A DNA stretch of 64,000 nt. Origin: an uncultured candidate division Zixibacteria bacterium (lineage in GTDB: Bacteria; Zixibacteria; MSB-5A5; GN15; FEB-12). Below, piece after piece: positions 1 to 49,408 of this stretch (positions are counted from its first letter, which is position 1; each line of letters begins with the position of its first letter). A program made the position numbers and the translations under genes. The notes beneath the pieces are model-generated. The model was not told where the DNA came from and did no database searches. It saw only the letters and a list, made by a program, of their open reading frames with translations. The stretch covers positions 981,469 to 1,045,468 of the forward strand of contig CAVPPI010000004.1 in NCBI GenBank assembly GCA_963707365.1, read 5' to 3'.

Positions 1-348
1 ATCAAGTCCATATCCGCTCTTCGCGCCAACGGCGTGGAGTTTCTACAAATTCCGGACACCTACTACGATATGCTGGCCAAACGGAAAGACCTGAAGATCA
101 CCGAGGATCTGGCGGATTTGAAAAAGCACGGTATCCTGTGCGACGTCGAAGGAACCGGCTACCTGCTGCAGCTGTTTACCAAACCCGTCGGCGACCGACC
201 GACCTTCTTTTTTGAGTTTATCCAGCGCGAAGGCGCTCAGGGATTCGGCAAGGGGAATTTCCAATCGCTGTTTGAGTCAATTGAACTCGACCAGAAACTG
301 CGCGGAAACCTGGATAAAGAACCGTCGGAGTCAATGCCGCCGTGCTAA
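1..348 (+). CDS. hppD: 4-hydroxyphenylpyruvate dioxygenase, C-terminal part (5' end lies outside the window)
   Basis: The frame is open from the window edge. The translated tail [52 protein letters not shown] matches the conserved C-terminal region of HPPD. It is followed directly by a homogentisate dioxygenase gene. Confidence 0.8.
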
Positions 349-393
349 AGTAGCACCTATAAACAACCGCAAGATAATAAAAAGGATTATCAT

Positions 394-1563
394 ATGCCGT
401 TTTATCACAGGTTAGGGGAAATCCCACGGGTGAAACATACCACCTTCTTCAAAAAGGATGGCAAATCACTGTACAGGGAGGAGCTATTTTCAAGCAAAGG
501 CTTCTCCGGCATCTACTCGAACAAGTATCACCATCATCTGCCCTCGGCGGTCAAGAGCGTAAAAGAACTTCCCCGGCACAAGAATATTGAATGGCCGGAG
601 GCACCGGTGCTGTATTTTCACTTCTTCACCGATAAGAAGGATTCCTCCGGTTCGTTTATCACGAGTCGCCACGCTTTTTTGACGAATCCCCACTGCACCA
701 TCTCAACTGCCCGTGTAACAGAGGACACGGACCACTTTTACCGAAACGCCTACGGAGCCGAATACGTTTTCATACACCGTGGTTCAGGAATCATGCTCAG
801 CGAATTCGGAAAAATAGCCTTTGGGCCGGGAGACCAATTTATCATTCCGCGGGCAGTGACGCACCAATTCAAGTTCGATGACTACAAAGATAACAAGCTG
901 TTTATCGTCGAGTCAGACACCGCTTTCGAAATCCCTAAGCATTATAAGAATGAATACGGTCAGCTCGAAGAACATGCTCCCTTCTGCGAGCGGGACATAA
1001 AGATACCTCAGTACATGCCCCCTAAGGACGAAACCGGCGAGTTCACGGTCATCCTGAAAGCAAAGGACCGGTATTTTGAACATATCGTACCGCATCACCC
1101 GTTCGGCGTGGTCGGCTGGGACGGATATCTCTACCCGTTTGCTCTGAATATCAAAGATTACCACCCGAAAGTCGGCCGAATACACCTGCCACCACCGGCC
1201 CATCTTGTCTTCAAGACCCAGCATTTCATCATGTGTAATTTCGTCCCGCGCCTTTTCGATTTTCACGAGTCAGCCATCCCGGCGCCATATTTCCACTCCA
1301 ATATCGACAGCGACGAAGTACTCTATTACGTAGAAGGGGATTTCATGTCACGCAAAGGCATCAGGGAAGGGTCAATTACCCTCCATCCGGGCGGGATGCC
1401 TCACGGTCCCCAGCCGGGCAAAACCGAAGACTCTATTGGCGCAAGGGAAACCAGCGAATACGCCATCATGATTGATACCTATTCTCCCCTGCGGCCCACG
1501 CTCAACGTCAAAGAGACGATCGATGAAGACTATGCCCGCTCATGGCTGGAGAATAATTCTTGA
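394..1563 (+). CDS. hmgA: homogentisate 1,2-dioxygenase (short ~390-aa form)
   Basis: The 389-aa ORF has a cupin-like core and a C-terminal ITLHPGGMPHGPQPG stretch typical of HGD. It sits between HPPD and a FAH-family hydrolase, which is the classical homogentisate pathway order. Confidence 0.85.
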   Translation: MPFYHRLGEIPRVKHTTFFKKDGKSLYREELFSSKGFSGIYSNKYHHHLPSAVKSVKELPRHKNIEWPEAPVLYFHFFTDKKDSSGSFITSRHAFLTNPHCTISTARVTEDTDHFYRNAYGAEYVFIHRGSGIMLSEFGKIAFGPGDQFIIPRAVTHQFKFDDYKDNKLFIVESDTAFEIPKHYKNEYGQLEEHAPFCERDIKIPQYMPPKDETGEFTVILKAKDRYFEHIVPHHPFGVVGWDGYLYPFALNIKDYHPKVGRIHLPPPAHLVFKTQHFIMCNFVPRLFDFHESAIPAPYFHSNIDSDEVLYYVEGDFMSRKGIREGSITLHPGGMPHGPQPGKTEDSIGARETSEYAIMIDTYSPLRPTLNVKETIDEDYARSWLENNS

Positions 1564-1644
1564 TGACGACACTTGACGAACGGGGTCGGTTTTCGTTGCT
1601 TTTGACCGGAGAATGAATTGACAAAACACCGGGGAAAACAGAAC

Positions 1645-2823
1645 ATGATTAAGATTCCGAAGTTCGTACAGGAACTCAAGCCGTATAAAGCCGGCAAACC
1701 AATAGCAGAATTGGCCAGAGAGAAAAACATAAAGCGAATCGTAAAGCTGGCCTCCAACGAAAACCCGCTGGGACCATCGCCAAAAGCTGTCGAGGCGGTC
1801 AAAGGCGCGCTGGGAGAACTCCATCGTTATACCGACCCAAAGTCGCACGATCTGGTCATGGCTCTTGCGAAAAAATATGATGTCCAGCCACAGCACATCA
1901 TCTGCGGCCACGGAACAGACTCCCTCATTGCCTATGTAATCAATGCCTTCACGGAAGAACAGGACGAGATACTCACCAGCGAAGGAACTTTCATAGGTAT
2001 TTATGTCAATGCCCGAAAATTCGGACGTACACTCAGGCAGGTACCCCTGAAAGACCACGGCTTTGACCTCGATGCTATCTTACGGGCAATCTCGCCGCAG
2101 ACCCGAATAATATATCTGGCCAATCCGAACAACCCTACCGGAACGATGTTCGGCAAAACTGAATTCGAAGCATTCATGGCGAAAGTACCCGATGATATAC
2201 TGGTCATACTGGACGAAGCTTACACTACGTATGCCTGCTCGAATCCGGATTACCCCAATGGTGTCACCTACTGGTACGAAAACATGGTTGTGATGCGTAC
2301 TTTGTCAAAGGCCTACGGTCTCGGTGGACTGCGGGTCGGCTTCGCGGTCGGGCCAAAGACAGTCATCGACACCCTCTACAAAGTAAAATTACCCTTCGAG
2401 CCTAATATTCTCGCCCAGAAAGCCGCAATTGCGGCGCTGGATGATGACGAATTTCTCAATCTCACCGTTGACACAAATCGCCGCTCACTGGCAACCATGA
2501 AGGCAAAATTCGACCAACTTGGTATCGGTCAGGTTGAAACTGCAGCCAATTTTATTTTGATGCTGATGCCCGATGAACAATTTGCGGCGGATTTTGCCGA
2601 TGAATGCCTCAATCACGGCTTGATCGTCAGACACGTACTCGGTTTTGGCATACCCAACGGCATCCGCATTAATTCCGGCACCGAAGACGAGACAGCTTTT
2701 GCGCTGGAAACTGTTGAAAAAGTATACTCAAAACTCACTCAGGAAAGAGCGAACAAGGAATCGGTTAATTCGAAAAAAGGGGACAACAATGAAATTCCTA
2801 TCGTACAGAAACAAAAACGGTGA
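1645..2823 (+). CDS. class I/II pyridoxal-phosphate aminotransferase, HisC family (probable aromatic/tyrosine aminotransferase in this context)
   Basis: It carries LASNENPLGPSP and the PLP-lysine region RTLSKAYGLGGLRVGF, both hallmarks of histidinol-phosphate/aromatic aminotransferases. I chose the ATG at 1645 (MIKIPKF...) over the ORF-track start at 1618. Confidence 0.8.
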   Translation: MIKIPKFVQELKPYKAGKPIAELAREKNIKRIVKLASNENPLGPSPKAVEAVKGALGELHRYTDPKSHDLVMALAKKYDVQPQHIICGHGTDSLIAYVINAFTEEQDEILTSEGTFIGIYVNARKFGRTLRQVPLKDHGFDLDAILRAISPQTRIIYLANPNNPTGTMFGKTEFEAFMAKVPDDILVILDEAYTTYACSNPDYPNGVTYWYENMVVMRTLSKAYGLGGLRVGFAVGPKTVIDTLYKVKLPFEPNILAQKAAIAALDDDEFLNLTVDTNRRSLATMKAKFDQLGIGQVETAANFILMLMPDEQFAADFADECLNHGLIVRHVLGFGIPNGIRINSGTEDETAFALETVEKVYSKLTQERANKESVNSKKGDNNEIPIVQKQKR

Positions 2824-3811
2824 AGAACGGCTGGGCCTGTTTATCGACAAACGCATCTTCGACCTGCATGATAACGCCAGAAACCTTTCAATTGCCCTTC
2901 CGACTACAATGGGACAATTCCTCCGCGGCGAAGAACTCTCAATGGACCTGGCGCGCAAAACGCAGGAAAGCATCTTAGCAGGCCGCACAACATCGTCGCT
3001 ATCGACCGAAGATATCACGCCTTTAGCCCCTGTACCTCATCCGACCTCCTGCCGCGATGGATACGCATTCCGACAACATGTAGCCACTGCCAGACGCAAC
3101 CGCGGCGTTGAGATGATTGCCGAGTTCGACCAGTACCCGGTCTTCTACTTCACCAACCATAACAGCATCATTGGCCAAGGCGATGTAAAAGTTGAATCCG
3201 ACCACCTTCAGAAACTCGATTTTGAACTCGAAGCGGCGGTCGTTATCGGCCGGCGGGGGAAGAATATCCCGTCTTCAGAAGCCGACGATTACATAGCCGG
3301 CTACACTATCATGAACGATCTCTCGGCCAGAGTGCTTCAGATGGAAGAAATGAAACTCAACCTCGGTCCGGCCAAAGGCAAAGACTTCGCTACCGCCATT
3401 GGCCCCTGGATGGTCACTCCCGATGAATTGGAACCGAACCGCATTGCCACCGACTTCGGCAACAAACACAATCTCCGCATGACAGCCTACCACAACGGCA
3501 ATCTCGTGTCCGATGGTAACCTGGCCGATATGAACTGGACTTTCGCGGAAATAATCGAGCGCTGCAGCTACGGTGCGGAAATATTTCCCGGTGATGTTAT
3601 CGGGTCCGGCACTGTCGGAACCGGCTGCTACCTCGAGCTAAACGGTACGCGCTCTCTGGAGGCTAAGGAAAAAGGTGAGTCGTACACGCCGGTCTGGCTC
3701 GCCGATGGTGACTCCATTGAGCTCGAGATTGAGGGACTGGGACGACTCAAAAACAAGATAGTCAAAGCCAAAAAATACTTTTCAATCCTGGCCAGGAAAA
3801 AGCGGGTGTAG
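2789..3811 (+). CDS. fumarylacetoacetate hydrolase (FAH) family protein
   Basis: The ATG at 2789 (MKFLSYRNKNGEERLGLF) is preceded by aaaaagggga and overlaps the aminotransferase stop. FAH-fold motifs are present: FELEAAVVIG, GYTIMNDLSAR and PGDVIGSGTVGTG. Confidence 0.75.
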   Translation: MKFLSYRNKNGEERLGLFIDKRIFDLHDNARNLSIALPTTMGQFLRGEELSMDLARKTQESILAGRTTSSLSTEDITPLAPVPHPTSCRDGYAFRQHVATARRNRGVEMIAEFDQYPVFYFTNHNSIIGQGDVKVESDHLQKLDFELEAAVVIGRRGKNIPSSEADDYIAGYTIMNDLSARVLQMEEMKLNLGPAKGKDFATAIGPWMVTPDELEPNRIATDFGNKHNLRMTAYHNGNLVSDGNLADMNWTFAEIIERCSYGAEIFPGDVIGSGTVGTGCYLELNGTRSLEAKEKGESYTPVWLADGDSIELEIEGLGRLKNKIVKAKKYFSILARKKRV

Positions 3812-3840
3812 GTTATGGAGAATTCCGACCACCATCGGAT

Positions 3841-4803
3841 ATGCTTCGCTTCGACCCGGGGGAAACTCCCGTTCGCCAGATACATCACCTATTACTGGGT
3901 GGTGTTGCCCCGCGGCCGATAGCTCTGGTTTCTACGGTCTCAGTAGATGGCATCAACAACCTCTCCCCCTTCTCCTTCTTCAACGCCTTCGGAGCAAATC
4001 CACCGATTGTTGCCTTCTCTCCATCCCGACGAGGGCGCGATGCTACCACCAAGGACACTTACAACAACCTGATCGAAACTAAAGAGTGTGTCGTTCAGGC
4101 TGTCACTCACGCTATGGTGAGGCAGGTAAGCCTGGCATCGACCGAATTCGCTCCCGACGTTGACGAGTTCATCAAATGCGGTTTGACACCCATTCCATCA
4201 GAGATTGTCAGGGCGCCAAGAGTAAAAGAATCGCCATTTCAGATGGAGTGTCGCGTTCGACAGGTCATACCGCTGGGCGAGGCAGGCGCATCTGGCAATC
4301 TCGTGATCTGCGAAGTCGTCAGATTTCACGTTTCTAAGAGTGTCCTTCGCGATGACGTCATTGACCCGGATGCTATCGATCTGGTCGGTCGCAACAGTGC
4401 CGATTATTACACTCGCGCCAGCGGAGAGGCCTTATTCGAAATCCCAAAACCATCGGGGAAAACCGCAGTCGGATTTGAACAACTGCCCGGAGTTCTCAAA
4501 CAGTCGCAACTACTATCAGCCAACAACCTTGCGCAGTTAGCGAGTTGTGAGGAGATACCTTCTGTCAAAGAAGTGATGGATTTCATCACTTCTGTCACGC
4601 CGATAAGGGCCAACGATGCTGACTTCAAGTTGCTCTCGCTTGAGAAGGATTTTGACGGCATGCTTGCGGCGGCGCTTGCGATTGCAGAAACCGACACCGG
4701 GCGCGCGAAAAAACGCCTGGAACAGACTATCAAAATGGCGCTGGATAGTAACGAAACATTGTTCGCCTGGAAATCGGCGATTTTCCTGAGTACACTGAAG
4801 TAA
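3841..4803 (+). CDS. flavin reductase-like FMN-binding domain protein with a ~110-aa C-terminal extension
   Basis: The N-terminal HHLLLGGVAPRPIALVSTVSVDGINNLSPFSFFNAFGANPPIVAFS is the typical flavin-reductase-like domain signature. I do not recognise the C-terminal third. Confidence 0.65.
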   Translation: MLRFDPGETPVRQIHHLLLGGVAPRPIALVSTVSVDGINNLSPFSFFNAFGANPPIVAFSPSRRGRDATTKDTYNNLIETKECVVQAVTHAMVRQVSLASTEFAPDVDEFIKCGLTPIPSEIVRAPRVKESPFQMECRVRQVIPLGEAGASGNLVICEVVRFHVSKSVLRDDVIDPDAIDLVGRNSADYYTRASGEALFEIPKPSGKTAVGFEQLPGVLKQSQLLSANNLAQLASCEEIPSVKEVMDFITSVTPIRANDADFKLLSLEKDFDGMLAAALAIAETDTGRAKKRLEQTIKMALDSNETLFAWKSAIFLSTLK

Positions 4804-4843
4804 CACCCCGCACACACTTCGTTGATTAGAAGGGAGCCTGAGC

Positions 4844-6811
4844 TTGTCCAAAAGACAACAACCGCTCTGGGAACCATCTGCCAAACGGGTGGCACATTCC
4901 AATATCGTCCGATACATGCAGTTTGCCTCCCGAAAGGCACAGCGGGAGTTTCTTTCGTACGATGAGCTTTACACCTGGTCGACTGACAACATTGCCGGGT
5001 TCTGGCAAACGCTCTGGGACTATTTTGAGATTATCCACTCCCGAAGACACGATAGCGTCCTCGATGGCAAAGACATCCGCACAGCGCGATGGTTCGAAGG
5101 CGCCCAACTCAACTTTGCCGAAAATCTCCTCCGATACCGCGACGAACACCTCGCCATCATCCATCAAACGGAATTCACCGGTCCCACCTCAATAACCTAC
5201 CGTGATTTGTACAAACAGGTCGCCCGATGTGCGTCCGGCCTGCGTGACCTCAACATTGGCCCCGGCGACCGCGTTGCGGCGTTTTTACCGAACTCGGCAT
5301 TTGCGATCATCGCCATGCTGGCTACAACAAGCCTTGGCGCCATATGGTCATCATGCTCGCCCGATTTCGGGTTTCAGGGTGTCCTCGATCGATTCGGACA
5401 GATAAAACCAAAAGTGATATTTACTACCGATGGCTACCAGTATGGCGGCAAACAGTACGACTGTCTCGCTACCGTTCGCCAACTTGCTTCCAGCGTATCG
5501 TCAATTGAGCAAATAGTCGGTATCCCCTACCTGCCGGAATCAAAACTCGAGCGATCAGACAAATTTATGCTCTGGGAAGACCTGCTGGCCAACGATTCCA
5601 AAGATATCGAATTTGCGCAACTTCCTTTTGACCATCCAGTCTATATCATGTACTCATCGGGCACCACCGGTGTGCCGAAATGCATGGTGCACGGAGCCGG
5701 CGGGACGCTGCTTCAACATCTGAAAGAGCTGTCGCTCCACACCGACCTTAAGCGAAACGATGTTATCACTTACTACACCACTTGCGGATGGATGATGTGG
5801 AACTGGCTTGTCAGCTCACTGGCCATCGGAGCTACCGTCTATCTCTACGATGGTTCCCCCGCCTACCCGGATATGAATACGCTCTATGCCGCAGTCGATG
5901 ATTGCCAAATCTCCGTTCTCGGAACCAGCCCCGGATTCCTCTCATCGTGTGAAAACGCCGGACTCAAGCCGAAAAAAACGCACAGTCTGACAAGTCTACG
6001 AACCGTACTCTCCACCGGCGCTCCTCTCTCCGATTCGAACTTCCAATACGTTTACAACAATATCAAAAGTGACCTTCAGCTATCATCCATATCCGGCGGA
6101 ACCGATATTATCTCCTGTTTCATGCTGGGCAATCCGATACTTCCGGTCTATTCAGGAGAGATCCAGTGCCGCGGTCTGGGGATGAAAGTGGAAACATATG
6201 ACGACACCGGACGGGCCGTAATCGATACTGTCGGAGAACTGGTTTGCACGGCTCCCTTTCCATCGCGTCCGGTAATGTTCTGGAACGACCCGGATGGCAA
6301 GAAATACAGCGCGGCATATTTCGAGCATTTCCCCGGCGTATGGCGTCATGGCGACTATATCCGGATCAATGATCGCGGGGGCGTTATAGTCTATGGTCGC
6401 TCCGATGCCACGCTCAATCGCGGTGGCGTCCGAATCGGAACAGCCGAAATTTATGCTCCGGTTGAGGCGATGGACGAAATCGAAGACAGCATTGTGGTCG
6501 GCCAACAGGCAGGTAGCGACATTCGCATAGTACTCTTCGTGGTACTCGCCCAAGGGCATGAACTCGACGACAACCTGAAAAACAGGATTAAAGACAGAAT
6601 CCGCAAAATGGAAACTCCCCGCCATGTACCTGATATCATCATTGCCGTGCGGGATATCCCCCGAACCTTAAACGGCAAGAAGGTCGAAATGGCGGTTACC
6701 CGCTTAATACACCACCAAAAGGTCACCAATATCGAGGCGCTCGCCAATCCCGAATCGCTGGCAGAGTTTTCCGACCTCAAGGAACTTAAACTGCCGCCCG
6801 AAGGTTTATAA
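4844..6811 (+). CDS. acetoacetyl-CoA synthetase (acetoacetate-CoA ligase), TTG start
   Basis: This is a 655-aa AMP-forming acyl-CoA synthetase with YIMYSSGTTGVPKCMVH (AMP-binding motif) and a C-terminal IPRTLNGKKVE. The N-terminal LWEPS...Y/F region and the size fit the acetoacetyl-CoA synthetase subfamily. It would consume the acetoacetate released by FAH. Confidence 0.8.
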   Translation: MSKRQQPLWEPSAKRVAHSNIVRYMQFASRKAQREFLSYDELYTWSTDNIAGFWQTLWDYFEIIHSRRHDSVLDGKDIRTARWFEGAQLNFAENLLRYRDEHLAIIHQTEFTGPTSITYRDLYKQVARCASGLRDLNIGPGDRVAAFLPNSAFAIIAMLATTSLGAIWSSCSPDFGFQGVLDRFGQIKPKVIFTTDGYQYGGKQYDCLATVRQLASSVSSIEQIVGIPYLPESKLERSDKFMLWEDLLANDSKDIEFAQLPFDHPVYIMYSSGTTGVPKCMVHGAGGTLLQHLKELSLHTDLKRNDVITYYTTCGWMMWNWLVSSLAIGATVYLYDGSPAYPDMNTLYAAVDDCQISVLGTSPGFLSSCENAGLKPKKTHSLTSLRTVLSTGAPLSDSNFQYVYNNIKSDLQLSSISGGTDIISCFMLGNPILPVYSGEIQCRGLGMKVETYDDTGRAVIDTVGELVCTAPFPSRPVMFWNDPDGKKYSAAYFEHFPGVWRHGDYIRINDRGGVIVYGRSDATLNRGGVRIGTAEIYAPVEAMDEIEDSIVVGQQAGSDIRIVLFVVLAQGHELDDNLKNRIKDRIRKMETPRHVPDIIIAVRDIPRTLNGKKVEMAVTRLIHHQKVTNIEALANPESLAEFSDLKELKLPPEGL

Positions 6812-6943
6812 CAGTACCATCCAAAAATGATGACAATAAAAACGTATTACCTGTGAGTTGTGGCCGCATATGGAGTATATCGGTACATATAACCCACAAC
6901 CGCCAAATCAAGAATTGAAATTACACCGCCATGGAGGTAGACA

Positions 6944-8788
6944 ATGAATAGCCCCGATACCGCCCGCCACTTCAGCGGGGCAATAAGCGAGGTCCGGAGC
7001 CGGGCCACCGTGTCAAAGGCACACCGGGACTTGATGGAAAACCCCATAATCCGCAATCTTCCCGCTCATCTGAAACAGTTCGTCGTGGACCAGAACTACG
7101 CTGCTTACACTCCCGTTGATCACGCTGTCTGGCGGTACGTCCTGCGGCAAAACCACCGCTTTCTCAAGGAATATGCTCATAAGATATATTTCGAAGGTCT
7201 GGAGAAAACGGGCCTCAAGATTGAAGCCATTCCCAGCATTGCCGAAATGAACAAAATCCTGTCCAAAATCGGCTGGGCCGCTGTCACCGTAAATGGCTTC
7301 ATCCCTCCGGCCGCCTTTATGGAATTTCAGGCCCACCGCGTGCTGGTTATTGCCGCCGACATGCGCCAGATTCATCATATTGAATACACGCCAAGCCCGG
7401 ATATAGTGCACGAAGCCGCCGGCCACGCACCCGTAATCGCCGACCCCAAGTACGCCGAGTACCTGCGCCGCTTTGGCGAAATCGGTACCAGGGCTATCTC
7501 CTCCAAAAAGGACTACGAGCTTTATGAAGCTATACGGAGATTGTCGATTCTTAAAGAACAACCGGACGCCGACCCGACCGTCGTCAAGCAAGCGGAGCAG
7601 GATGTTCTATACAAGCAAAGCAATCTTGGCAAACCTTCTGAAATGGCCCTCCTGAGCCGCCTTCACTGGTGGACAGTCGAGTTCGGACTGATTGGACCGC
7701 TGGATAACCCCAAAATTTATGGCGCGGGACTTCTCTCCTCCATTGGCGAGGCCGCACACTGTTTTTCCGACGAAGTAAAGAAACTGCCGTACGGTCCCGA
7801 TGCGGTCAGTTACCCCTTTGATATCACAACCATGCAACCACACCTGTTCGTCACGCCGAGTTTCGATTATCTCATCGAAGTCCTCGAACAATTCGCCGAC
7901 ACCATGGCGTTTCGGGTTGGCGGCCTCAATAGCATCGAGAAAGCCATTGAATGTGAAAATACTGCTACTTGCGTTTTCGCATCCGGTCTGCAGGTATCCG
8001 GGACATTCACGGAAGTAATCACCGACAATCACAGTAGGCCGGCATACGTAAAAACTTCCGGGCCAACCAATCTATCCTTCAATTACCACGAATTGCCCGG
8101 TCACACCAGAGACTACCACAGCCACGGTTTCTCCTCACCGGTTGGACGACTGCAGACAGCAGAGAAACCTCTTGAAGATTTCACTGATACCGACATGGAG
8201 AAGTTCGGCCTCGTAAACGGTAACAAAATCAGGCTGGAATTCGAAAGCGGCGTTGTCGTCGACGGAGTCCTGTCCCAGGTTGTCCGCCGCAATGACCGGA
8301 TAATCTTGCTTGTGTTTGTAGAATGTACTGTGACTCACGGCGACACTGTGCTGTTCCAACCATCGTGGGGCATTTACGATATGGCCGTTGGTGAAAATAT
8401 CGTGTCTGTCTTTGCCGGAGCCGCTGACAAAGTTGCCTACGAACAACCATCAACTGTCTCGAAGACACGTACCATCAGAACCAACTATGATGAAAGAATG
8501 CGAAAGCTGCACCGGTTGTATCAGACTGTGCGTGATGTCCGGGAAAATCGGATCGAGGCAGCCGTACTTCATGACATTAGGGACAAACTTCAGACTGAAT
8601 ATCCTGAAGACTGGTTGCTCTCCATCGAAATCCTTGAAATACTCGAAACGCACGACATCTTTCCGACTCTGAGAGATGAAATGAAAGAGGCATTGGATAG
8701 GCGGGTCGAAAGCGACCGGATCCGTTCAGGACTTATAAGCGACGGGCTCTATTTGATTTATAACCGCCAGGAGAGTAAGCAAAAATAG
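6944..8788 (+). CDS. phhA: aromatic amino acid hydroxylase (phenylalanine-4-hydroxylase type) with a long C-terminal extension
   Basis: A GGAGGT sits 6 nt before the ATG. Residues ~40-330 carry the biopterin-dependent hydroxylase core (PDIVHEAAGHAPVIADPKYAEYLRRFGEIG, WWTVEFGLIG, YGAGLLSSIGE). Residues ~330-614 are an extra domain I do not recognise. Confidence 0.75.
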   Translation: MNSPDTARHFSGAISEVRSRATVSKAHRDLMENPIIRNLPAHLKQFVVDQNYAAYTPVDHAVWRYVLRQNHRFLKEYAHKIYFEGLEKTGLKIEAIPSIAEMNKILSKIGWAAVTVNGFIPPAAFMEFQAHRVLVIAADMRQIHHIEYTPSPDIVHEAAGHAPVIADPKYAEYLRRFGEIGTRAISSKKDYELYEAIRRLSILKEQPDADPTVVKQAEQDVLYKQSNLGKPSEMALLSRLHWWTVEFGLIGPLDNPKIYGAGLLSSIGEAAHCFSDEVKKLPYGPDAVSYPFDITTMQPHLFVTPSFDYLIEVLEQFADTMAFRVGGLNSIEKAIECENTATCVFASGLQVSGTFTEVITDNHSRPAYVKTSGPTNLSFNYHELPGHTRDYHSHGFSSPVGRLQTAEKPLEDFTDTDMEKFGLVNGNKIRLEFESGVVVDGVLSQVVRRNDRIILLVFVECTVTHGDTVLFQPSWGIYDMAVGENIVSVFAGAADKVAYEQPSTVSKTRTIRTNYDERMRKLHRLYQTVRDVRENRIEAAVLHDIRDKLQTEYPEDWLLSIEILEILETHDIFPTLRDEMKEALDRRVESDRIRSGLISDGLYLIYNRQESKQK

Positions 8789-8808
8789 CTGGCGCTGGTG
8801 TGATAACG

Positions 8809-9501
8809 CTACAACGTCCCGGTGATATCGCCCACCGTGATATTCTCCACCAGCACCTTTGATGGCCGGCTGATGGCATAATATACCGCCTCGGCTACTT
8901 CTTTCGGATGAAGCATTTTGTCCTTCGACCAGTCTCCGGGGATGTCCTTCCAAAGTTCCGTGGCCGTTGCGCTCGGATAGATATTGATGACCCTGATACC
9001 TCTGGGCCGCAGCTCCTCCCGGATACTCTGCATCAAGCCTTCCAACGCGAATTTGCTCATAGAATAGCTGCTCCAGTTGGGGAACCCCGTACGCGCTGCT
9101 ATAGACATTATATTGACGATGGCAGCTCCTTCAACCATCACAGGAAACAACTTCTTAACCAACACAAACGGCGCCGTCACATTTACGGCAATGGTTCTCT
9201 CCCACTCCTCATGTGTCGTATTTTCAAACGGCTTCACATAAGCGACTCCGGCATTGTTCACCAGCAAATGCAGCGGCACAGCGCTCACATTGTTTACCAG
9301 CGTATCCACACCACGCAGCTCCGACAAATCGGCAACGACCGGAGACGCTTTCCCGCCATTGCCCTCAACGATTTTACAGCTTTCCGCAAGGGCATCGACA
9401 TTCCTCCCCTGCAGCATCAGATGGTAGCTCTCGCCGGCGAGCCTGGCGGCGATTTCTCTGCCTATGCCCCGGCTGGCGCCGGTAATGAGTCCGTTCTTCA
9501 T
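8809..9501 (-). CDS. short-chain dehydrogenase/reductase (candidate sepiapterin/pteridine reductase)
   Basis: It has the N-terminal Rossmann motif ITGASRGIGREIA, an NNAG motif and a catalytic Y..xK region (YSMSKFALEG). It is the last gene of the folE-PTPS-SDR operon. Confidence 0.8.
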   Translation of the reverse strand: MKNGLITGASRGIGREIAARLAGESYHLMLQGRNVDALAESCKIVEGNGGKASPVVADLSELRGVDTLVNNVSAVPLHLLVNNAGVAYVKPFENTTHEEWERTIAVNVTAPFVLVKKLFPVMVEGAAIVNIMSIAARTGFPNWSSYSMSKFALEGLMQSIREELRPRGIRVINIYPSATATELWKDIPGDWSKDKMLHPKEVAEAVYYAISRPSKVLVENITVGDITGTL

Positions 9502-9526
9502 AGCCTGTCTCCTAACGATTGTCCCC

Positions 9527-10747
9527 TCATAACGCCCGTCTCAGGGTAAAACGGTTGTTCGGCGTTTCCCAAAGGCGTAAACGGGTAAGTTTGCCATCAA
9601 CCTGTCCATCCAGCTTGGGCCACAACACCCCGACTATATTTTCGCCGGTGGTGACCATGCCCTTGAATTCATCCGTGTCCATATCGAGATGTTTGTAGTT
9701 CCATTCGTCAACAGTATCAAAGACCGCTTGCTCGAGATCGGCCAACTTAAACATGGTGCCTGTCTTCTCGTCAAGTCTGCCCCCGATACTGGCCTCAACC
9801 TCATAAAGATGCCCGTGACCGTACGGATTATTGCACTTGCCGTAAACTGATTTGTTCTCTTCATCCGAAAGTTCACAGGAATGCAGCCGATGGGCGGCAT
9901 GAAACCGGGTCAGAACACCCATAGTCCAGATATCCGCACTTGAGAACTCCACAAAGAAATGGTCATGCTCGTACAGCTTCACTCTGCTGACAGGTATCTG
10001 CTCACCGAGACGCTTCTGAAAGTGACGCGCAAGAACCTCTGTTGTCACCGGTGAACCGCTCAACTCCGGTAAATCGACATTCAAATTACGGTGGTCAAAC
10101 CGGGCCCGCAATTCATCGATAATGCGTCTCCCCTCCGCCTCAGGATATATCATGCCGGCATCTTTATCGGGCTCGCCGCACAGCGTGACTCTGAGGCGAT
10201 AGTGATGGCCGTGGCCGAAGGGCGATGATGCCTGACCAAAAAGTTCCTCGTTCTCGACCTGGGATGCATGCGGTGAATAAGTCTGCCTCGCGGCCGAAAA
10301 ATCGGTCCACAGATGGCGCTCGACTCTTCCGTCGGCATAGGCCGTAGCCTCACTGTATGGCGACTCGATCAGATGGCACACAACCGGCTGCGCCGTCATA
10401 TCTTTGAACAGCGGTATAGCTTCCGCCAACAGGTTTGCCGCCAGGTTCTCAGCCGTCGGTACGATTTTATCAAACGGCGGCGTATCGGTATTGAAATATT
10501 TGTGATCGTATCTATTGTCAATAATCTGCTTAATTTTCTCTTTAATGATAGTCACGTTGATCATCATACCATTGGCTCGGTCAACCGGACCATCGAACAC
10601 GAAATGAGCGACAAAGTTGTGGCCGTGTCCGAACCGGCTCGTCGCCTCACGGCCGAAGTATGCAATATTCTTAGCCTCGCTCCAGTCCTTTACGAATAGA
10701 CGGTGCGAACTCGAAAACTCGAAACGTTTACTTATCAAAAGAGACAT
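9527..10747 (-). CDS. three-module 6-pyruvoyl-tetrahydropterin synthase (PTPS/QueD T-fold) fusion protein
   Basis: The 406-aa ORF holds three consecutive PTPS-type modules (about residues 1-140, 145-275 and 280-406). Each has a GHGH zinc-ligand signature ([27 protein letters not shown]) and a DH[KR]xxN / YKHLD motif. Only module 3 has the active-site Cys ([11 protein letters not shown]). Confidence 0.8.
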
Positions 10748-11286
10748 GGTTTTATCAGGCTAAAAAACTCCGCCCGCGTCGAAGGATCGTCATGGAATTC
10801 GCCGAGTACGCACGATGTCGTCATGATTGAGTTCTGCTTCTCCACCCCGCGCATCATCATACACAAATGCTGAGCTTCTATCACGACCGCCACCCCGACT
10901 GCATTGGTGTGCTTTTCGATTGTTTCCGCAATCTGCTTGGTCAACTTCTCCTGAATCTGAAGACGCCGCGCGAAAACATCAACAATGCGCGCTACTTTCG
11001 ACACGCCAATAACCTTGCCGCTCGGAATATAAGCCGCATGGCACTTCCCTATAAACGGCAACAGGTGGTGTTCACACATGGAATACAGTTCGATATTTTT
11101 GACCAGAACAATCTCGCTTGTATCGGACTCAAACAGCGCGTTGTTAACCAGCTGATCAATGTCCTCGCGATATCCCTGTGTCAGAAACTCCATGGCTTTT
11201 GCCGCCCGGCGCGGAGTGTCTTTAAGTCCTTCCCTATTAACATCTTCCCCTATCTTCTCAAGTATCTGCCGGTAGAGATTTTCCAT
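10735..11286 (-). CDS. folE: GTP cyclohydrolase I (type IA)
   Basis: The 183-aa ORF contains [23 protein letters not shown] and QERLT-like QEKLTKQIA, the canonical FolE motifs. It overlaps the PTPS start by 13 nt. Confidence 0.95.
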
Positions 11287-11472: not shown

Positions 11473-12705
11473 TCACTGCCAGAACGACTTCAGCACCGAG
11501 GAAACAGAATACAATTTGCGTGGATCCCCACTCTTAGTTATAAACTCGGTGCACGCATTGCGCAGGTAGACGCTCTTTTTCACCCTGCGGGCCATGAAAT
11601 CATTCAGCCACGGCTTCGATACCCACTTCTGAGCTTGCATATATCCCGCGTGGACTGGTTTCATGATCGACTCTACACCGGCAGTATAACTCTCCACAGC
11701 AGATCTGTCACCGGATGACAACGCTCTGTCGATAGCCTGAGCCGCCAAATCTCCGCACGTCATCGCCTGTCCAATCCCCTCACCCGTCAGCGGAAAAGTA
11801 GCGCCGATAATCTCGCCAACCATGAGAACACTCTTTTTAAACACCGGTCTGGCATTTTCAAGGTCACAGCGCAAAGCTCCGCTCCGCAACGGCGACAGAA
11901 CCTCGGAATCTTCCATTATCTCCCGGGCAAGCGGAAAAGTCGTAGTGAAAGACTCAAAACACCTGCGCAGGTTGAAATCTTGCTTACCATTGAGAAAATA
12001 GCCGCACCCTATATTGTATTCGCCGTTGCCGAGAGGAACTATCCAGCCATATCCGGGCAACAGCCGGCGATCATAGCACAACACCAGATGATTCAGGTTC
12101 GCACGAGATTTGACATAGCACCGCGCAGCTATCGCGCTGGGTTTGTCACTTGCCATCCCTTCTATCCGACGGGCAAGCCCCATGTGGGCGCCGGTCGCAA
12201 GGACCGCAAATTTACATCGCACCGAATGCTTCCCTTTCCTATCGCGGACTGTTACGGTGTGGTCATCGGCAACGTCAAGAGAATCCAAATGACCACAGCA
12301 GAACACGGCCCCGCTTCTCACCGCCGCCTCGGCCAACCTGGTATCAAGATACCGGCGCTTGATAGTGACAATATCGCCGTCAACACTGAAGTTCACTCCT
12401 CCCGGGCTATATATGGAGATTCCTTCAAGCACCGAACCGGCCTTGCGAATAGAGTCATAGAGACCCATTCGTTCAAGGTTCTTAGATACGCCGGTGATCA
12501 GGCTGTCACCACAGACTTTGTCCCGGGGGAAACGCGCCATGTCGACCAGCAGAACTTGATATCCCTTGCGACTGAGACGGAAAGCGGTGGTCGAGCCGGC
12601 CGGACCTGCCCCCACCACAACTACATCCCACAATTTGTCAGGAATACTGGTTAATGGCTCCTGCCACGCTACGGGTGCTGACTCTTGTTCGCGATTAGGT
12701 ACCAA
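11473..12705 (-). CDS. FAD-dependent oxidoreductase, geranylgeranyl reductase family
   Basis: It has the N-terminal dinucleotide fold VVVVGAGPAGSTTAFRLSRKGYQVLLVD followed by FPRDKVCGD. Its length (410 aa) is typical of GGR-like flavoproteins. Confidence 0.6.
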   Translation of the reverse strand: MVPNREQESAPVAWQEPLTSIPDKLWDVVVVGAGPAGSTTAFRLSRKGYQVLLVDMARFPRDKVCGDSLITGVSKNLERMGLYDSIRKAGSVLEGISIYSPGGVNFSVDGDIVTIKRRYLDTRLAEAAVRSGAVFCCGHLDSLDVADDHTVTVRDRKGKHSVRCKFAVLATGAHMGLARRIEGMASDKPSAIAARCYVKSRANLNHLVLCYDRRLLPGYGWIVPLGNGEYNIGCGYFLNGKQDFNLRRCFESFTTTFPLAREIMEDSEVLSPLRSGALRCDLENARPVFKKSVLMVGEIIGATFPLTGEGIGQAMTCGDLAAQAIDRALSSGDRSAVESYTAGVESIMKPVHAGYMQAQKWVSKPWLNDFMARRVKKSVYLRNACTEFITKSGDPRKLYSVSSVLKSFWQ

Positions 12706-13529: not shown

Positions 13530-15008
13530 TCAACCTTTCACAACGCCGAGTGGCGTGAGCCGGGCTACCTTTTTCGCAATTCCGGCTCTGTCGGAAATTT
13601 CCACGACTTCATCAATATCTTTGTAAGCCCCCGGCGCCTCTTCGGATATGATCTTGCGACTCATAGCCTGAAGGTAAATTCCCTTGGCCTCCATCTCCGC
13701 TAGAACCCTGTCCGACGGATGCAACTTTCGGGCGGCGTGCCGTGACAGGCTACGTCCTGCTCCATGGCACGATGATCCGAAAGTCTCGTTCATAGCTTTC
13801 TCGGTACCCACCAGAAGGTAGCTGGCAGTTCCCATATCTCCCGGTATCAACACCGGCTGCCCGACCCCGCGATACCGCTCTGGAATATCTCTGTGACCCG
13901 GACCGAATGCTCTCGTCGCCCCCTTACGATGAACATACAGCCACCGCTTCTTGCCCTCCACGACGTGCTCTTCCAGCTTGGCAATATTGTGAGCTATATC
14001 GTAAATCTGATGCATCCCCATCTCGCGCGCCGGTCTTTTCAGCACCGAGGCAAACGACTCCCGCACCCAGTGGGTAATCATCTGACGGTTCGACCATGCG
14101 AAATTGGCGCCGCACTTCATGGCAGTGAAATACTGCTGTCCTTCCGGACTATCCGCGGGAGCGCACGACAACTCGCGATCTATCAGGGGGATACCGTATT
14201 TCTTGTTGGCCCGCCGCATTATCTCAAGGTAATCGGTGCATATCTGATGCCCGCATCCGCGCGAGCCGGTATGAATCATGACCGTAATCTGGGCGCGCTC
14301 GGTTATGCCAAAAGCAGCAGCGGTCTCTCTATCATAAATCTCGTCTACCTGCTGAATCTCCAGAAAATGATTCCCCGCTCCGAGCGTGCCGAGCTGACCT
14401 GAACCCCGCTTTCTGGCGGCATCACTGACAGCCTGAGCATCTCCTCCGTCGATACATCCCTGCTCTTCAGTCATCACCAAATCTTCCGGCCAGCCGTAAC
14501 CGTTCTCGACCGCCCAACGTGCGCCGTCTTCAAGTACGTACTTCATCTCCGCAGCGGACAAACGCACCCTGCCCTCGGAACCGACACCGCACGGAATATT
14601 GTGAAACATGGCGTTAATAAGTTTGTCAATCCTCGGTATCACGTCGGACACCGAGAGATCGGTCCTGAGCAATCTGACACCGCAATTTATGTCATACCCG
14701 ACTCCACCGGGCGAGATAATGCCTCTCGAGGCATCGAAGGCAGCCACGCCACCGATTGCGAAACCGTAACCGTGATGAATATCCGGCATGGCAATGGATT
14801 TGCCCACTATACCCGGAAGAGTGGCAACATTGGCTACCTGCTCGGGTGAATCATCGCGCACGATCGAGTCGATCATTCTGTCATCGGCATAGATTACCCC
14901 CGGCACACTCATCCGCACCCGGTTCTGCTGCATGATTTTGCTTTCGTATGAAGCCGGTATCTCGAACCGGAAATCATCAATCTTCTTCAGTGGACCTGCC
15001 CATGACAT
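13530..15008 (-). CDS. rtcB: RNA-splicing ligase RtcB
   Basis: The 492-aa ORF has GYDINCGVR, GSRGCGHQ, HNIA and CHGAGR motifs characteristic of RtcB 3'-phosphate RNA ligase. Confidence 0.9.
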   Translation of the reverse strand: MSWAGPLKKIDDFRFEIPASYESKIMQQNRVRMSVPGVIYADDRMIDSIVRDDSPEQVANVATLPGIVGKSIAMPDIHHGYGFAIGGVAAFDASRGIISPGGVGYDINCGVRLLRTDLSVSDVIPRIDKLINAMFHNIPCGVGSEGRVRLSAAEMKYVLEDGARWAVENGYGWPEDLVMTEEQGCIDGGDAQAVSDAARKRGSGQLGTLGAGNHFLEIQQVDEIYDRETAAAFGITERAQITVMIHTGSRGCGHQICTDYLEIMRRANKKYGIPLIDRELSCAPADSPEGQQYFTAMKCGANFAWSNRQMITHWVRESFASVLKRPAREMGMHQIYDIAHNIAKLEEHVVEGKKRWLYVHRKGATRAFGPGHRDIPERYRGVGQPVLIPGDMGTASYLLVGTEKAMNETFGSSCHGAGRSLSRHAARKLHPSDRVLAEMEAKGIYLQAMSRKIISEEAPGAYKDIDEVVEISDRAGIAKKVARLTPLGVVKG

Positions 15009-15043
15009 AGCTCTCCTGCCGCTCCTTCTAAATCATCTCGAAG

Positions 15044-15499
15044 TTAAACATCAAACAACACTTGAACGTGTGCCGGACCCTCGCCGGTTGACTCGGATAT
15101 CTCCATCATATGGTACGATACGCCCTTTACGTGATGACCATAGGAATGTCGATTTTTATCGAACTTCTCTCCCCATCCGCGCGCGCTAAGTCTGTCCTGC
15201 CCCTGAAGTGCAACCTCGAAATCGGTGAGAACCCATCCGTCGACCTCGTGCAGTACAATAAGCCTTGACAACAATCCTACCAGCAGACCTTCCCTGTCAA
15301 CCGACTCAACTTCGATTTCGACCTTCTCATCGGGATTGATAACGGACCCATCGGTCACAATATCGAACATGGCATCGGCCGCCACGGCATAGGCCTCCTC
15401 AACAGTACTGCCGTAGGCCTTGATGGCAATATCGGCCGTATGCTCGATAAACTCGTAATGACGTGAACCCCCGGCTCCGCTTTTCTCTTTTGATATCAT
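15044..15499 (-). CDS. archease (RtcB activator)
   Basis: The 151-aa ORF has the N-terminal YEFIEHTADIAIKAYG motif and a C-terminal KGVSYH motif. It lies immediately upstream of rtcB. Confidence 0.85.
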   Translation of the reverse strand: MISKEKSGAGGSRHYEFIEHTADIAIKAYGSTVEEAYAVAADAMFDIVTDGSVINPDEKVEIEVESVDREGLLVGLLSRLIVLHEVDGWVLTDFEVALQGQDRLSARGWGEKFDKNRHSYGHHVKGVSYHMMEISESTGEGPAHVQVLFDV

Positions 15500-16342: not shown

Positions 16343-16367
16343 CGCGGCACTCTCACCTTATAACGCA

Positions 16368-24236: not shown

Positions 24237-24252
24237 CTTATCATCTTACGAC

Positions 24253-25161: not shown

Positions 25162-25253
25162 ATATTAATTATACTACTTTGACTTGCGTAACAACAACAG
25201 TTTTGCGCTTGACGTTATGCCCCGGCAAATGCATTCTTAGATGGAGAACAGAT

Positions 25254-31429: not shown

Positions 31430-31444
31430 GGGGGGCACAGCGTT

Positions 31445-31706: not shown

Positions 31707-31716
31707 AACAAAAAAA

Positions 31717-49404: not shown

Positions 49405-49408
49405 ACCG

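What the first reader, a model, noticed from the sequence alone, without database searches (positions are those of the whole stretch)
8809..11286. Bacterial tetrahydrobiopterin-type operon with a single-chain three-module PTPS
Seen directly: folE, a 406-aa protein made of three PTPS T-fold modules, and an SDR form one overlapping minus-strand operon. It is convergent with a phenylalanine-hydroxylase-type gene. Each module keeps the GHGH zinc ligands. Only module 3 has the Cys-containing stretch [15 protein letters not shown]. That stretch matches the animal PTPS active site (GKCNNPNGHGHNY as I recall it) rather than the QueD-type CxxxHGH. Module 2 also reads FSAARQ where modules 1 and 3 have FSSSHRL / FHAAHRL.

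Established knowledge: PTPS is a hexamer of two trimers with active sites at subunit interfaces. Some T-fold enzymes are bimodular fusions.

Inference: a covalent pseudo-trimer in which one module is catalytic and two are degenerate would be an unusual evolutionary state of the T-fold. The SDR would be the sepiapterin-reductase step that supplies BH4 to the hydroxylase.
Basis: partly seen in the sequence, partly recalled or inferred. Interest (0 to 1): 0.6.

Follow-up and report, generated by a model that had tools for sequence, protein, structure and literature searches.

The report
Three-in-one pterin synthase with split active site
A Zixibacteria genome makes its biopterin-type cofactor with a single protein that fuses three copies of the PTPS enzyme unit; the copies have divided the catalytic residues among themselves, an arrangement that is widespread in metagenomes and that I could not find described.

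Summary
On the minus strand, folE (10735-11286), a 406-aa protein with three PF01242 modules (9527-10747) and an SDR (8809-9501) form one tight operon. It is convergent with a 614-aa phenylalanine-hydroxylase-family gene. That gene ends a Phe/Tyr-to-homogentisate catabolic operon.

The interpretation needs refining. Only module 3 has the PTPS-II centre (H286, C305, H311, H313). It has lost the Asp-His dyad, which is N350/Y351 here. Modules 1 and 2 lack the Cys but keep the dyad. In 128 homologues, the M3 Zn/Cys residues are 128/128 and the M1 dyad is 128/126. The M1 zinc ligands are decaying. M2 carries a strictly conserved remodelled site (R/A/H/H plus dyad).

In QueD, the dyad histidine reaches the active site from the opposite ring. 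I therefore infer a dimer of single-chain rings in which M1 completes the M3' site and M2 pairs with M2'. This pairing fits 41 of 46 intact sites in 37 diverse representatives.

The architecture is not rare. It occurs in Zixibacteria, Ardenticatena (Chloroflexota), and a cluster that includes a cyanobacterial fragment. I found no characterisation of it. I rate it a new variant of a known kind, of moderate interest.

The parts
10735..11286 (-). folE, GTP cyclohydrolase I (type IA), first gene of the pterin operon
   Evidence: PF01227 E 7.6e-76. TIGR00063 scores 252.7 bits against a cutoff of 181.6. Its stop overlaps the PTPS start by 13 nt.
9527..10747 (-). Tri-modular PTPS (406 aa plus stop): three PF01242 T-fold modules in one chain
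   Evidence: Pfam finds 3 stretches. My own HMM segments it at 1-140, 141-272 and 273-406. [quoted passage not shown] The best Foldseek matches are animal PTPS chains, with target-normalised TM-score (TMt) 0.90-0.92.
10328..10747 (-). Module 1 (residues 1-140). It has no Cys. It has Zn-type His at H15/H41/H43, but these are only 56-70% conserved among 73 close homologues. Its Asp-His dyad D81/H82 is invariant. It is the proposed dyad donor to the module 3 site of the partner chain.
   Evidence: Residue census. Codons verified. Pairing test.
9932..10327 (-). Module 2 (residues 141-272). It has a remodelled site. R154 replaces the first Zn ligand and A173 replaces the Cys. H179/H181, D218/H219, E237 and E260 are all at least 96% conserved. 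It is proposed to pair with itself across the dimer axis.
9530..9931 (-). Module 3 (residues 273-406). This is the only canonical PTPS-II centre, with H286, C305, H311, H313, E369 and E394 (Cx5HGH motif). The dyad is lost (N350/Y351).
   Evidence: The Zn/Cys positions are conserved in 128 of 128 homologues, while His89-equivalent is kept in only 3 of 128. It is 43% identical to rat PTPS.
8809..9501 (-). Classical SDR (230 aa), last gene of the operon. Candidate sepiapterin/6-pyruvoyl-tetrahydropterin reductase.
   Evidence: PF00106 E 6.6e-48. The gene is conserved directly beside the tri-modular PTPS/folE pair in L081, L082, L083, L084/85, L087 and L088. A profile of these SDRs hits C. tepidum sepiapterin reductase 2bd0 at 139 bits, rank 3, against a top hit of 141 bits.
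6944..8788 (+). Long-form pterin-dependent aromatic amino acid hydroxylase (614 aa), convergent with the SDR
   Evidence: NF010657 scores 793 bits against a cutoff of 346. PF00351 matches. PDB 7vgm, 'phenylalanine-4-hydroxylase' of 592 aa, matches over its full length at 556 bits.
34..6811 (+). Upstream genes of the same plus-strand operon, encoding Phe/Tyr catabolism via homogentisate. HPPD C-terminus (34-348; the gene starts before the window). HgmA-like dioxygenase (394-1563). HisC-family aminotransferase (1618-2823). Fumarylacetoacetate hydrolase (within ORF 2645-3811). Flavin_Reduct-like protein (3841-4803). Acetoacetate-CoA ligase (4844-6811).
   Evidence: The same gene order occurs in L088.

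Best explanation
The 406-aa protein is a single-chain, pseudo-trimeric PTPS-II-type enzyme. Its three T-fold modules fold into one 12-stranded ring, the equivalent of one PTPS trimer.

[quoted passage not shown] That centre needs an Asp-His dyad. In QueD, the dyad histidine comes from the opposite ring. Module 3 has lost its own dyad, and module 1 has kept it.

I therefore infer a head-to-head homodimer of rings. In it, module 1 of one chain completes the module 3 site of the other. Module 2 faces module 2 across the true two-fold axis and carries a remodelled, probably zinc-free site of unknown role. This gives two canonical active sites per six modules instead of six.

With FolE upstream and the SDR downstream acting as the NADPH-dependent side-chain reductase, the operon would make a tetrahydrobiopterin-type cofactor. 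That cofactor would serve the adjacent long-form phenylalanine hydroxylase, the last gene of the adjacent Phe/Tyr-homogentisate-acetoacetate catabolic operon, which would convert Phe to Tyr.

Shown: the domain architecture, the residue pattern and its conservation, the operon and its synteny, and the fold.

Inferred: the dimer geometry and trans-complementation, the enzymatic product, the SDR substrate, and the cofactor-hydroxylase link.
For: - **Architecture and fold.** Three PF01242 stretches. AF2 mean pLDDT 96.5 and pTM 0.92, with 4-residue hairpin linkers between the last strand of one module and the first strand of the next. Foldseek target-normalised TM-score 0.90-0.92 to human, rat and C. 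elegans PTPS.
- **Motif.** Cx5HGH, the PTPS-II signature given in PMC5041015, is present only in M3. There is no Cx3HGH (QueD) or ExxHGH (PTPS-III) anywhere in the protein.
- **Residue census over 128 tri-modular homologues.** M3 has H/C/H/H in 128/128, but His89 in only 3/128. M1 has D88 in 128/128 and H89 in 126/128, while its Zn ligands are at 62-76/128. M2 has R122/A117/H125/H126 plus D123/H123.
- **Dyad supplied in trans.** The dyad histidine is written His71'' for E. coli QueD, with the double prime marking the opposite-ring protomer (PMC9894224). 'Intersubunit catalytic triad' appears in the title of Burgisser 1995, cited.
- **Pairing test on 37 representatives at <=50% identity.** Intact sites that lack a partner dyad: 5/46 for M1:M3' + M2:M2', against 26/46 and 35/46 for the other two symmetric pairings.
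- **A degeneration series supports M2 self-pairing.** M2 is fully canonical in Ardenticatena (P0139, P0142). It is remodelled in Zixibacteria. It is dead in both site and dyad in P0123 and P0130. It is eroded to a ~100-aa filler in the ~370-aa class.
- **Module positions are orthologous across the family.**
- **Context.** folE-PTPS3-SDR is conserved in all 6 Cx5-type gene contexts inspected, from 5 different homologues plus the window. It is convergent with a Phe/Tyr catabolic operon here and in L088. In L088 a Pterin_4a dehydratase gene follows the hydroxylase.
Against: - No coordinates or multimer prediction were available. The ring closure is supported only by pTM and secondary structure. 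The dimer pairing rests only on conservation logic, and the sequences are phylogenetically related.
- 5 of 46 sites violate the favoured pairing. P0157 ([HSQH|DF][HCHH|DH][HCHH|DH]) fits the alternative M1:M1' pairing better.
- Glu107 is invariant in all three modules. The M2 site is strongly conserved without a canonical role, so the model does not explain everything.
- NCBI and JGI automatic names call these proteins 6-carboxytetrahydropterin synthase.
- TIGR03367 (QueD) also scores above its cutoff summed over the three modules (124.5 against 89.25).
- The SDR is no closer to C. tepidum sepiapterin reductase than to unrelated SDRs.
- In three relatives (L081, L087, L084) no hydroxylase is adjacent.
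- No PCD or dihydropteridine reductase is in this window.
Confidence: 0.6

Rival explanations
1. Module 3 is a self-sufficient catalytic unit, and modules 1 and 2 are merely degenerate scaffolds that fill the ring. There is no trans-complementation.
For: Only M3 has Cys and the full Zn triad. In the ~370-aa class, M2 can erode to an unrecognisable filler.
Against: M3 has lost His89 in 125 of 128 homologues, while the M1 dyad is 128/126 of 128 conserved even though M1's own Zn ligands decay. M2 site residues are at least 96% conserved in the Zixibacteria class. All modules evolve at similar overall rates (mean top-residue frequency 0.63-0.67). The dyad histidine is written with the opposite-ring double prime (His71'') for E. 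coli QueD.
Confidence: 0.15
2. The protein is a QueD-type 6-carboxy-tetrahydropterin synthase, as automatic annotation says. It would feed 7-deazaguanine (queuosine) synthesis, and the adjacency to the hydroxylase would be coincidental.
For: NCBI names for homologues. TIGR03367 scores 124.5 bits against a cutoff of 89.25, summed over three modules. PTPS-family enzymes are known to be promiscuous.
Against: There is no Cx3HGH motif; M3 carries Cx5HGH. Every module is closer to rat PTPS (36-43% identity) than to E. coli QueD (28-33%). No queC, queE or queF genes are in the 64-kb window. The operon partner is an SDR, conserved across phyla. A PCD gene and the hydroxylase are adjacent in L088.
Confidence: 0.08
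3. The operon makes a different pterin end product that is not primarily the hydroxylase cofactor. Examples are a glycosylated or threo-biopterin with a photoprotective or redox role, as in Chlorobium and cyanobacteria, or a precursor for another enzyme.
For: folE-PTPS3-SDR is conserved without an adjacent hydroxylase in L081, L087 and L084. A geranylgeranyl-reductase-family flavoprotein is the conserved upstream neighbour in three Zixibacteria loci. A related tri-modular class with Cx3HGH sits in folE-PTPS3-FolB operons, which shows the architecture serves more than one pterin route.
Against: Convergent adjacency to the hydroxylase operon recurs in two genomes whose PTPS proteins are only 57% identical, once with PCD. 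No glycosyltransferase is in the operon.
Confidence: 0.15

Closest known systems
Animal/bacterial PTPS-II (6-pyruvoyl-tetrahydropterin synthase; rat 1b66, human 3i2b)
   Same: It has the same fold (Foldseek target-normalised TM-score 0.90-0.92). M3 has the same Cx5HGH motif, Zn His triad, Glu107 and Glu133 equivalents, and is 43% identical to rat PTPS. It has the same pathway partners, FolE and a reductase.
   Different: Known PTPS is a homohexamer of ~140-aa subunits with six identical sites. Here three diverged modules are fused in one chain. The catalytic residues are partitioned: Zn/Cys only in M3, and the Asp-His dyad only in M1 and M2.
Bimodular T-fold enzymes (urate oxidase, GTP cyclohydrolase IB, bimodular QueF)
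   Same: They are tandem T-fold modules in one chain that sit side by side in the tunnel ring. Module specialisation after fusion is known in them.
   Different: The literature I could search describes only uni- and bimodular T-folds. This chain has three modules, enough to close a whole PTPS-type ring by itself. The bimodular structures match the model only weakly (TMq about 0.3, rmsd 8-18 A).
Chlorobium tepidum BH4 pathway (sepiapterin reductase 2bd0)
   Same: It is a bacterial FolE/PTPS/SDR route to a biopterin. The operon SDR aligns end to end with 2bd0 (139 bits).
   Different: The similarity is no better than to clavulanate dehydrogenase or other SDRs. The stereochemistry of the product is unknown.
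E. coli QueD / A. baumannii QueD2 (PTPS-I)
   Same: They share the same superfamily, the Zn site and a trans-ring histidine in the catalytic triad.
   Different: QueD has Cx3HGH and QueD2 has Cx4HGH, and both are single-module proteins with que-gene context. None of these features is found here.

Membership tests
PTPS-II (6-pyruvoyl-tetrahydropterin synthase) | PF01242 T-fold domain | tested here: met
   Three stretches, E 1.1e-66. AF2 and Foldseek agree.
PTPS-II (6-pyruvoyl-tetrahydropterin synthase) | Signature CxxxxxHGH (PMC5041015) | tested here: met
   C305-NNPYG-H311-G-H313 in module 3 only. Modules 1 and 2 have Ala at the Cys position.
PTPS-II (6-pyruvoyl-tetrahydropterin synthase) | Three Zn-ligand histidines (rat H23, H48, H50) | tested here: met
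   M3 has H286/H311/H313, invariant in 128/128. M1 has them in this protein, but they are only 48-59% conserved in the 128-sequence census. M2 has Arg at the first position.
PTPS-II (6-pyruvoyl-tetrahydropterin synthase) | Asp88-His89 dyad of the catalytic triad in the same polypeptide module as the Cys | tested here: not met
   M3 has N350/Y351, and His is kept in only 3/128 homologues. The dyad is present in M1 (D81/H82) and M2 (D218/H219).
PTPS-II (6-pyruvoyl-tetrahydropterin synthase) | Homohexamer (dimer of trimers) of single-module subunits | tested here: not met
   The chain has three fused modules. The quaternary state itself could not be computed.
PTPS-II (6-pyruvoyl-tetrahydropterin synthase) | [quoted passage not shown] | not testable with these tools
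   This needs an enzyme assay.
QueD / PTPS-I | Cx3HGH motif and que-gene neighbourhood | tested here: not met
   There is no C.{3}HGH in the protein. No queC, queE or queF genes are in the window.
PTPS-III (folate bypass) | ExxHGH motif | tested here: not met
   The residues three positions before HGH are R, P and P in the three modules.
Sepiapterin reductase (bacterial, C. tepidum type) | Classical SDR with TGxxxGxG and YxxxK, in an operon with PTPS and FolE | tested here: met
   ITGASRGIG and YSMSK motifs are present. The gene is conserved beside PTPS3 and folE in all 6 gene contexts inspected.
Sepiapterin reductase (bacterial, C. tepidum type) | Specific sequence kinship to a characterised SR | tested here: inconclusive
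   2bd0 ranks 16th with the single sequence and 3rd with the profile, within 2 bits of unrelated SDRs.
Pterin-dependent aromatic amino acid hydroxylase, long form (NF010657) | Whole-protein score above the curated cutoff | tested here: met
   793 bits against a cutoff of 346. Full-length match to PDB 7vgm.

The most novel reading that the evidence does not exclude
The family would be the first T-fold enzyme in which one polypeptide closes the whole ring and the active site has become obligatorily hetero-modular. The Zn/Cys half would lie on module 3 and the Asp-His half on module 1 of the partner chain, reducing six sites to two. The self-paired module 2 would have evolved a conserved, zinc-free Arg/His/His pterin site with a new regulatory or catalytic function. 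The site is canonical in Chloroflexota, remodelled in Zixibacteria and erased in the ~370-aa class. Together these would give a natural step-by-step record of subfunctionalisation inside a symmetric oligomer.
Probability: 0.4. Interest if true: 0.65.

Novelty: new variant of a known kind. Interest (0 to 1): 0.52.

Why it matters
Textbook T-fold enzymes are symmetric homo-oligomers, with identical active sites built at subunit interfaces. A natural single-chain ring shows how gene triplication and fusion frees the copies to split one interface active site into complementary halves. The surviving intermediates make this directly testable by mutagenesis and structure determination.

There are two practical consequences. 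First, hundreds of metagenomic proteins auto-named '6-carboxytetrahydropterin synthase' are probably biopterin-pathway enzymes. Second, Zixibacteria and some Chloroflexota appear to make a BH4-type cofactor, in two genomes next to a phenylalanine-catabolic operon. This widens the short list of bacteria predicted to use biopterin.

Tried and rejected
- **Genome-contig scan with the protein.** The one I opened (L043) holds two adjacent but unfused PTPS-II genes plus folE, and the ~830-880-bp matches in the other loci suggest the same layout. The scan was useless for Zixibacteria context, and it is capped at one.
- **Exact-sequence look-ups of the window protein and of P0001.** Neither was on record. 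I used homologues instead.
- **P0157 context.** It lies at a contig end and is uninformative.
- **Key papers not held.** Phillips 2012 (PMC3262898) and Miles 2014 (PMC4156044, doi 10.1074/jbc.M114.555680) are not held. The trans-ring origin of the dyad therefore rests on the QueD2 paper and on my recollection of Nar 1994 and Burgisser 1995.
- **Literature searches.** Searches for tri-modular T-folds, fused PTPS and Zixibacteria plus BH4 found nothing relevant.
- **Promoter and terminator scan.** It gave only weak consensus matches.
- **tblastn for PCD and for further PTPS paralogues in the window.** Nothing was found.
- **Assembly or frameshift artefact.** I considered and rejected this. The ORF is continuous, and more than 120 homologues have the same length.
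- **PTPS-III identity.** I considered and rejected this, because there is no ExxHGH motif.
- **Geometry of the AF2 model.** It could not be measured, because no coordinates are returned.
Full report
**1. Observation**

- The SDR is at 8809-9501(-) and is 230 aa.
- A 406-aa ORF lies at 9527-10747(-).
- folE is at 10735-11286(-).
- folE overlaps the 406-aa ORF by 13 nt. The SDR starts 25 nt after the ORF's stop. This is a tight, probably translationally coupled operon.
- A 614-aa hydroxylase gene at 6944-8788(+) ends 20 nt from the SDR stop, so the two are convergent.

Pfam assigns PF01227 to FolE, PF00106 to the SDR and PF00351 to the hydroxylase. It assigns PF01242 in three separate stretches to the 406-aa protein, at E 1.1e-66. 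NCBIfam agrees. FolE is an equivalog hit. The hydroxylase scores 793 bits on NF010657 against a cutoff of 346.

A single-module HMM that I built cuts the protein at residues 1-140, 141-272 and 273-406, each at E <= 1e-52. The three modules are only 26-30% identical to each other. They are 36-43% identical to rat PTPS and less similar to E. coli QueD. This points to an old triplication of a PTPS-II-like unit.

They are three GHGH motifs, [15 protein letters not shown] in module 3 only, and FSAARQ in module 2.

**2. Organism and spread of the architecture**

The exact protein is in the public collection. Its nearest named relatives are 51-73% identical and come from Candidatus Zixiibacteriota / GN15. 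More than 120 full-length homologues of about 405 aa were returned.

An exhaustive profile-free scan of 1.84 billion cluster representatives found 100 with E <= 1e-30. They fall into a group of about 360-420 aa with three modules and a group of about 260-300 aa with two modules.

One tri-modular homologue is WP_054493579.1 of the cultured Chloroflexota species Ardenticatena maritima. Another cluster includes a Trichormus azollae fragment.

The architecture is therefore real, conserved and present in several phyla. It is not a one-off.

I found no paper that describes it.
- PTPS family surveys list subfamilies I to VI by motif and mention 18 domain architectures without discussing fusions.
- The T-fold literature I could search speaks only of uni- and bimodular proteins.
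- No solved structure has three modules in one chain.

**3. Anatomy of the three modules**

I use rat PTPS numbering for reference.
- H23, H48 and H50 are the zinc ligands.
- C42 is the catalytic base.
- D88 and H89 form the dyad of the triad.
- E107 anchors the pterin.
- E133 is the remaining active-site glutamate tracked here.

The window protein reads as follows.

| Module | H23 | C42 | H48 | H50 | D88 | H89 | E107 | E133 |
|---|---|---|---|---|---|---|---|---|
| M1 | H15 | Ala | H41 | H43 | D81 | H82 | E100 | E128 |
| M2 | R154 | A173 | H179 | H181 | D218 | H219 | E237 | E260 |
| M3 | H286 | C305 | H311 | H313 | N350 | Y351 | E369 | E394 |

The pattern across 128 tri-modular homologues is sharp.

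| Module | Zn/Cys positions | Dyad | Other |
|---|---|---|---|
| M3 | all four 128/128 | Asp in 53; His in only 3 (Tyr 96, Phe 17) | |
| M1 | never Cys; Zn ligands 62-76/128 | D88 128/128, H89 126/128 | |
| M2 | Arg 122, Ala 117, His 125, His 126 | Asp 123, His 123 | E107 128, E133 125 |

Overall substitution rates of the three modules are alike. None of them is a decaying pseudo-domain. The differences are confined to catalytic positions.

**4. Structure**

I ran AlphaFold2 with a 73-sequence alignment. It gave mean pLDDT 96.5 and pTM 0.92. [quoted passage not shown] The last strand of each module is joined to the first strand of the next by a 4-residue turn. This is what a single chain closing a 12-stranded T-fold barrel would require.

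Foldseek's best PDB matches are C. elegans, human and rat PTPS, with a target-normalised TM-score of 0.90-0.92 on one module. QueD and the bimodular T-folds come far behind.

The tool returns no coordinates, and multimers cannot be submitted. Inter-module distances and the dimer could therefore not be measured.

**5. Mechanistic inference**

The dyad histidine is written His71'' for E. coli QueD, with the double prime marking the opposite-ring protomer (PMC9894224). 'Intersubunit catalytic triad' is in the title of Burgisser 1995, cited. My recollection of Nar 1994 is that the rat PTPS site is built from two subunits of one trimer and one subunit of the other.

D3 symmetry makes dyad donation reciprocal between one upper and one lower subunit. 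A C2 dimer of single-chain rings must therefore pair one module with itself and swap the other two.

I scored the three possible pairings on 37 representatives at <=50% identity. For each, I counted canonical HCHH sites whose partner lacks the Asp-His dyad.

| Pairing | Sites lacking partner dyad |
|---|---|
| M3:M3' | 35/46 |
| M1:M1' + M2:M3' | 26/46 |
| M2:M2' + M1:M3' | 5/46 |

The favoured pairing, M2:M2' + M1:M3', explains several observations.
- The M1 dyad is invariant while its own zinc site decays, because its partner M3 donates no histidine.
- M3 could afford to lose its dyad.
- The site and dyad of M2 live or die together. Both are canonical in Ardenticatena (P0139, P0142). Both are remodelled but conserved in Zixibacteria. 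Both are lost in P0123 and P0130. M2 is eroded to a filler of about 100 aa in the ~370-aa class.

Module positions are orthologous across these classes, and M1 and M3 correspond to modules 1 and 2 of the two-module proteins.

Exceptions exist, notably P0157 and P0146. The sequences are also not phylogenetically independent. I put this part of the model at roughly 50-60%.

The role of the Arg/Ala/His/His site in M2 is unexplained. Its conservation suggests ligand binding, not mere scaffolding.

**6. Pathway context**

The plus-strand genes upstream of the hydroxylase are these.

| Coordinates | Gene |
|---|---|
| 34-348 | C-terminus of 4-hydroxyphenylpyruvate dioxygenase |
| 394-1563 | HgmA-like dioxygenase |
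| 1618-2823 | HisC-family aminotransferase |
| within 2645-3811 | fumarylacetoacetate hydrolase |
| 3841-4803 | Flavin_Reduct-like protein |
| 4844-6811 | acetoacetate-CoA ligase |

Together they encode phenylalanine/tyrosine catabolism via homogentisate to acetoacetyl-CoA. The hydroxylase would convert Phe to Tyr. Its full length matches PDB 7vgm, 'phenylalanine-4-hydroxylase'.

In relative L088 the PTPS is 57% identical. The same two operons converge there, and a Pterin_4a (PCD) gene follows the hydroxylase. This ties the locus to pterin-dependent hydroxylation.

folE-PTPS3-SDR is kept in all six Cx5-type gene contexts inspected, from the window and five different homologues, including Ardenticatena. 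In three of them the hydroxylase is not adjacent.

No que, fol, PCD or second PTPS gene lies in the 64-kb window.

The SDR has the classical TGxxxGxG and YxxxK motifs. It aligns end to end with C. tepidum sepiapterin reductase 2bd0, but it scores no better than against unrelated SDRs. Its role is inferred from operon conservation.

**7. Rivals**

- **QueD activity.** The motif, the module similarities and the context all disfavour it. PTPS-family enzymes are promiscuous, so it cannot be excluded without an assay.
- **'One live module, two dead ones'.** The dyad distribution and the conservation of M2 contradict this reading.
- **A pterin made for another purpose.** This remains possible, because the operon often occurs without the hydroxylase. 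A sister class (~370 aa, Cx3HGH in M3) also sits in folE-PTPS3-FolB operons.

**8. Verdict**

The object is a member of the PTPS superfamily with a PTPS-II-type centre. It fails two defining features of classical PTPS-II. The triad is not contained in one module type, and the assembly is not a hexamer of single-module subunits.

I rate it a new variant of a known kind. It is widespread and uncharacterised, and it has a specific, testable model of active-site partitioning. Interest is moderate at 0.52. It would be higher if the trans-complementing dimer and a new function for the module 2 site are confirmed.

Noticed in passing
window 34-8788 (+): A complete Phe/Tyr catabolic operon via homogentisate. 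Its genes are HPPD (cut by the window start), an HgmA-like dioxygenase that scores far below the hmgA cutoff (56 against 510 bits), a HisC-family aminotransferase, FAA hydrolase, a Flavin_Reduct-like protein, acetoacetate-CoA ligase and the hydroxylase. No maleylacetoacetate isomerase is evident.
   Followed up: partly
window 3841-4803 (+); L088 16272-17252: A 320-aa protein with an N-terminal Flavin_Reduct domain and an unassigned C-terminal half is conserved inside the catabolic operon in two genomes. It could be the missing quinonoid-dihydropterin reductase or an isomerase substitute. This is pure speculation.
   Followed up: no
window 6944-8788 (+), residues ~323-614: The hydroxylase carries a C-terminal extension of about 290 aa with no Pfam domain. 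The extension is part of the NF010657 family and of PDB entry 7vgm. Its function is not known to me.
   Followed up: partly
L088 11961-12296 versus window 8789-8808: A relative has a pterin-4a-carbinolamine dehydratase gene between the hydroxylase and the SDR. In this window the two genes are only 20 nt apart, and no PCD gene is found anywhere in the 64 kb.
   Followed up: yes
window 11473-12705 (-); L081 6043-7278; L082 408-1652; L087 8045-9244: A geranylgeranyl-reductase-family flavoprotein (TIGR02032) is the conserved upstream neighbour of folE in three Zixibacteria loci and in this window, but not in L088. Any link to pterin metabolism is unknown.
   Followed up: no
L089 6001-7491; L090 2101-3596: A sister class of tri-modular PTPS of about 370 aa. 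M2 is eroded to a filler, and M3 has a QueD-like Cx3HGH motif. It lies in folE-PTPS3-FolB operons, which suggests a different pterin route using the same fused architecture.
   Followed up: partly
L043 8010-9502 (L001-L080 give similar ~830-880-bp matches): In the Acidobacteriota locus I opened (L043), two adjacent unfused PTPS-II genes, both with GKCNNPxGHGH, lie next to folE. The other loci from the scan gave similar ~830-880-bp matches and were not inspected. This may be a pre-fusion state, or a heteromeric PTPS.
   Followed up: partly
window 13530-16835 (-): RtcB, archease, a histone-deacetylase-family protein and a histidine-phosphatase-like gene form a block. The block is syntenic next to the pterin operon in several Zixibacteria (L081, L087, L088).
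   Followed up: no
window 23100-26759: A radical SAM gene (23100-24236), a DUF362 fragment, and a fused Memo-AMMECR1 protein (25179-26759). As I recall it, this resembles the AmmeMemoRadiSam system, here with Memo and AMMECR1 in one chain.
   Followed up: no
window 29852-34815 (+): A Y-family polymerase-like gene (IMS domain, 525 aa) followed by a DnaE-type polymerase alpha subunit (1052 aa). This looks like an ImuB/DnaE2 mutagenesis cassette.
   Followed up: no
window 45455-58968: A large cluster of multihaem c-type cytochromes interleaved with NHL/beta-propeller proteins. One 1065-aa protein has 19 paired-CXXCH repeats and MtrC/MtrF-like domains. This suggests extracellular electron transfer.
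   Followed up: no
window 35752-40706 (-): Two neighbouring proteins with PPDK_N (PEP-utilising, ATP-binding) domains. One is fused to a nucleotidyltransferase domain.
   Followed up: no
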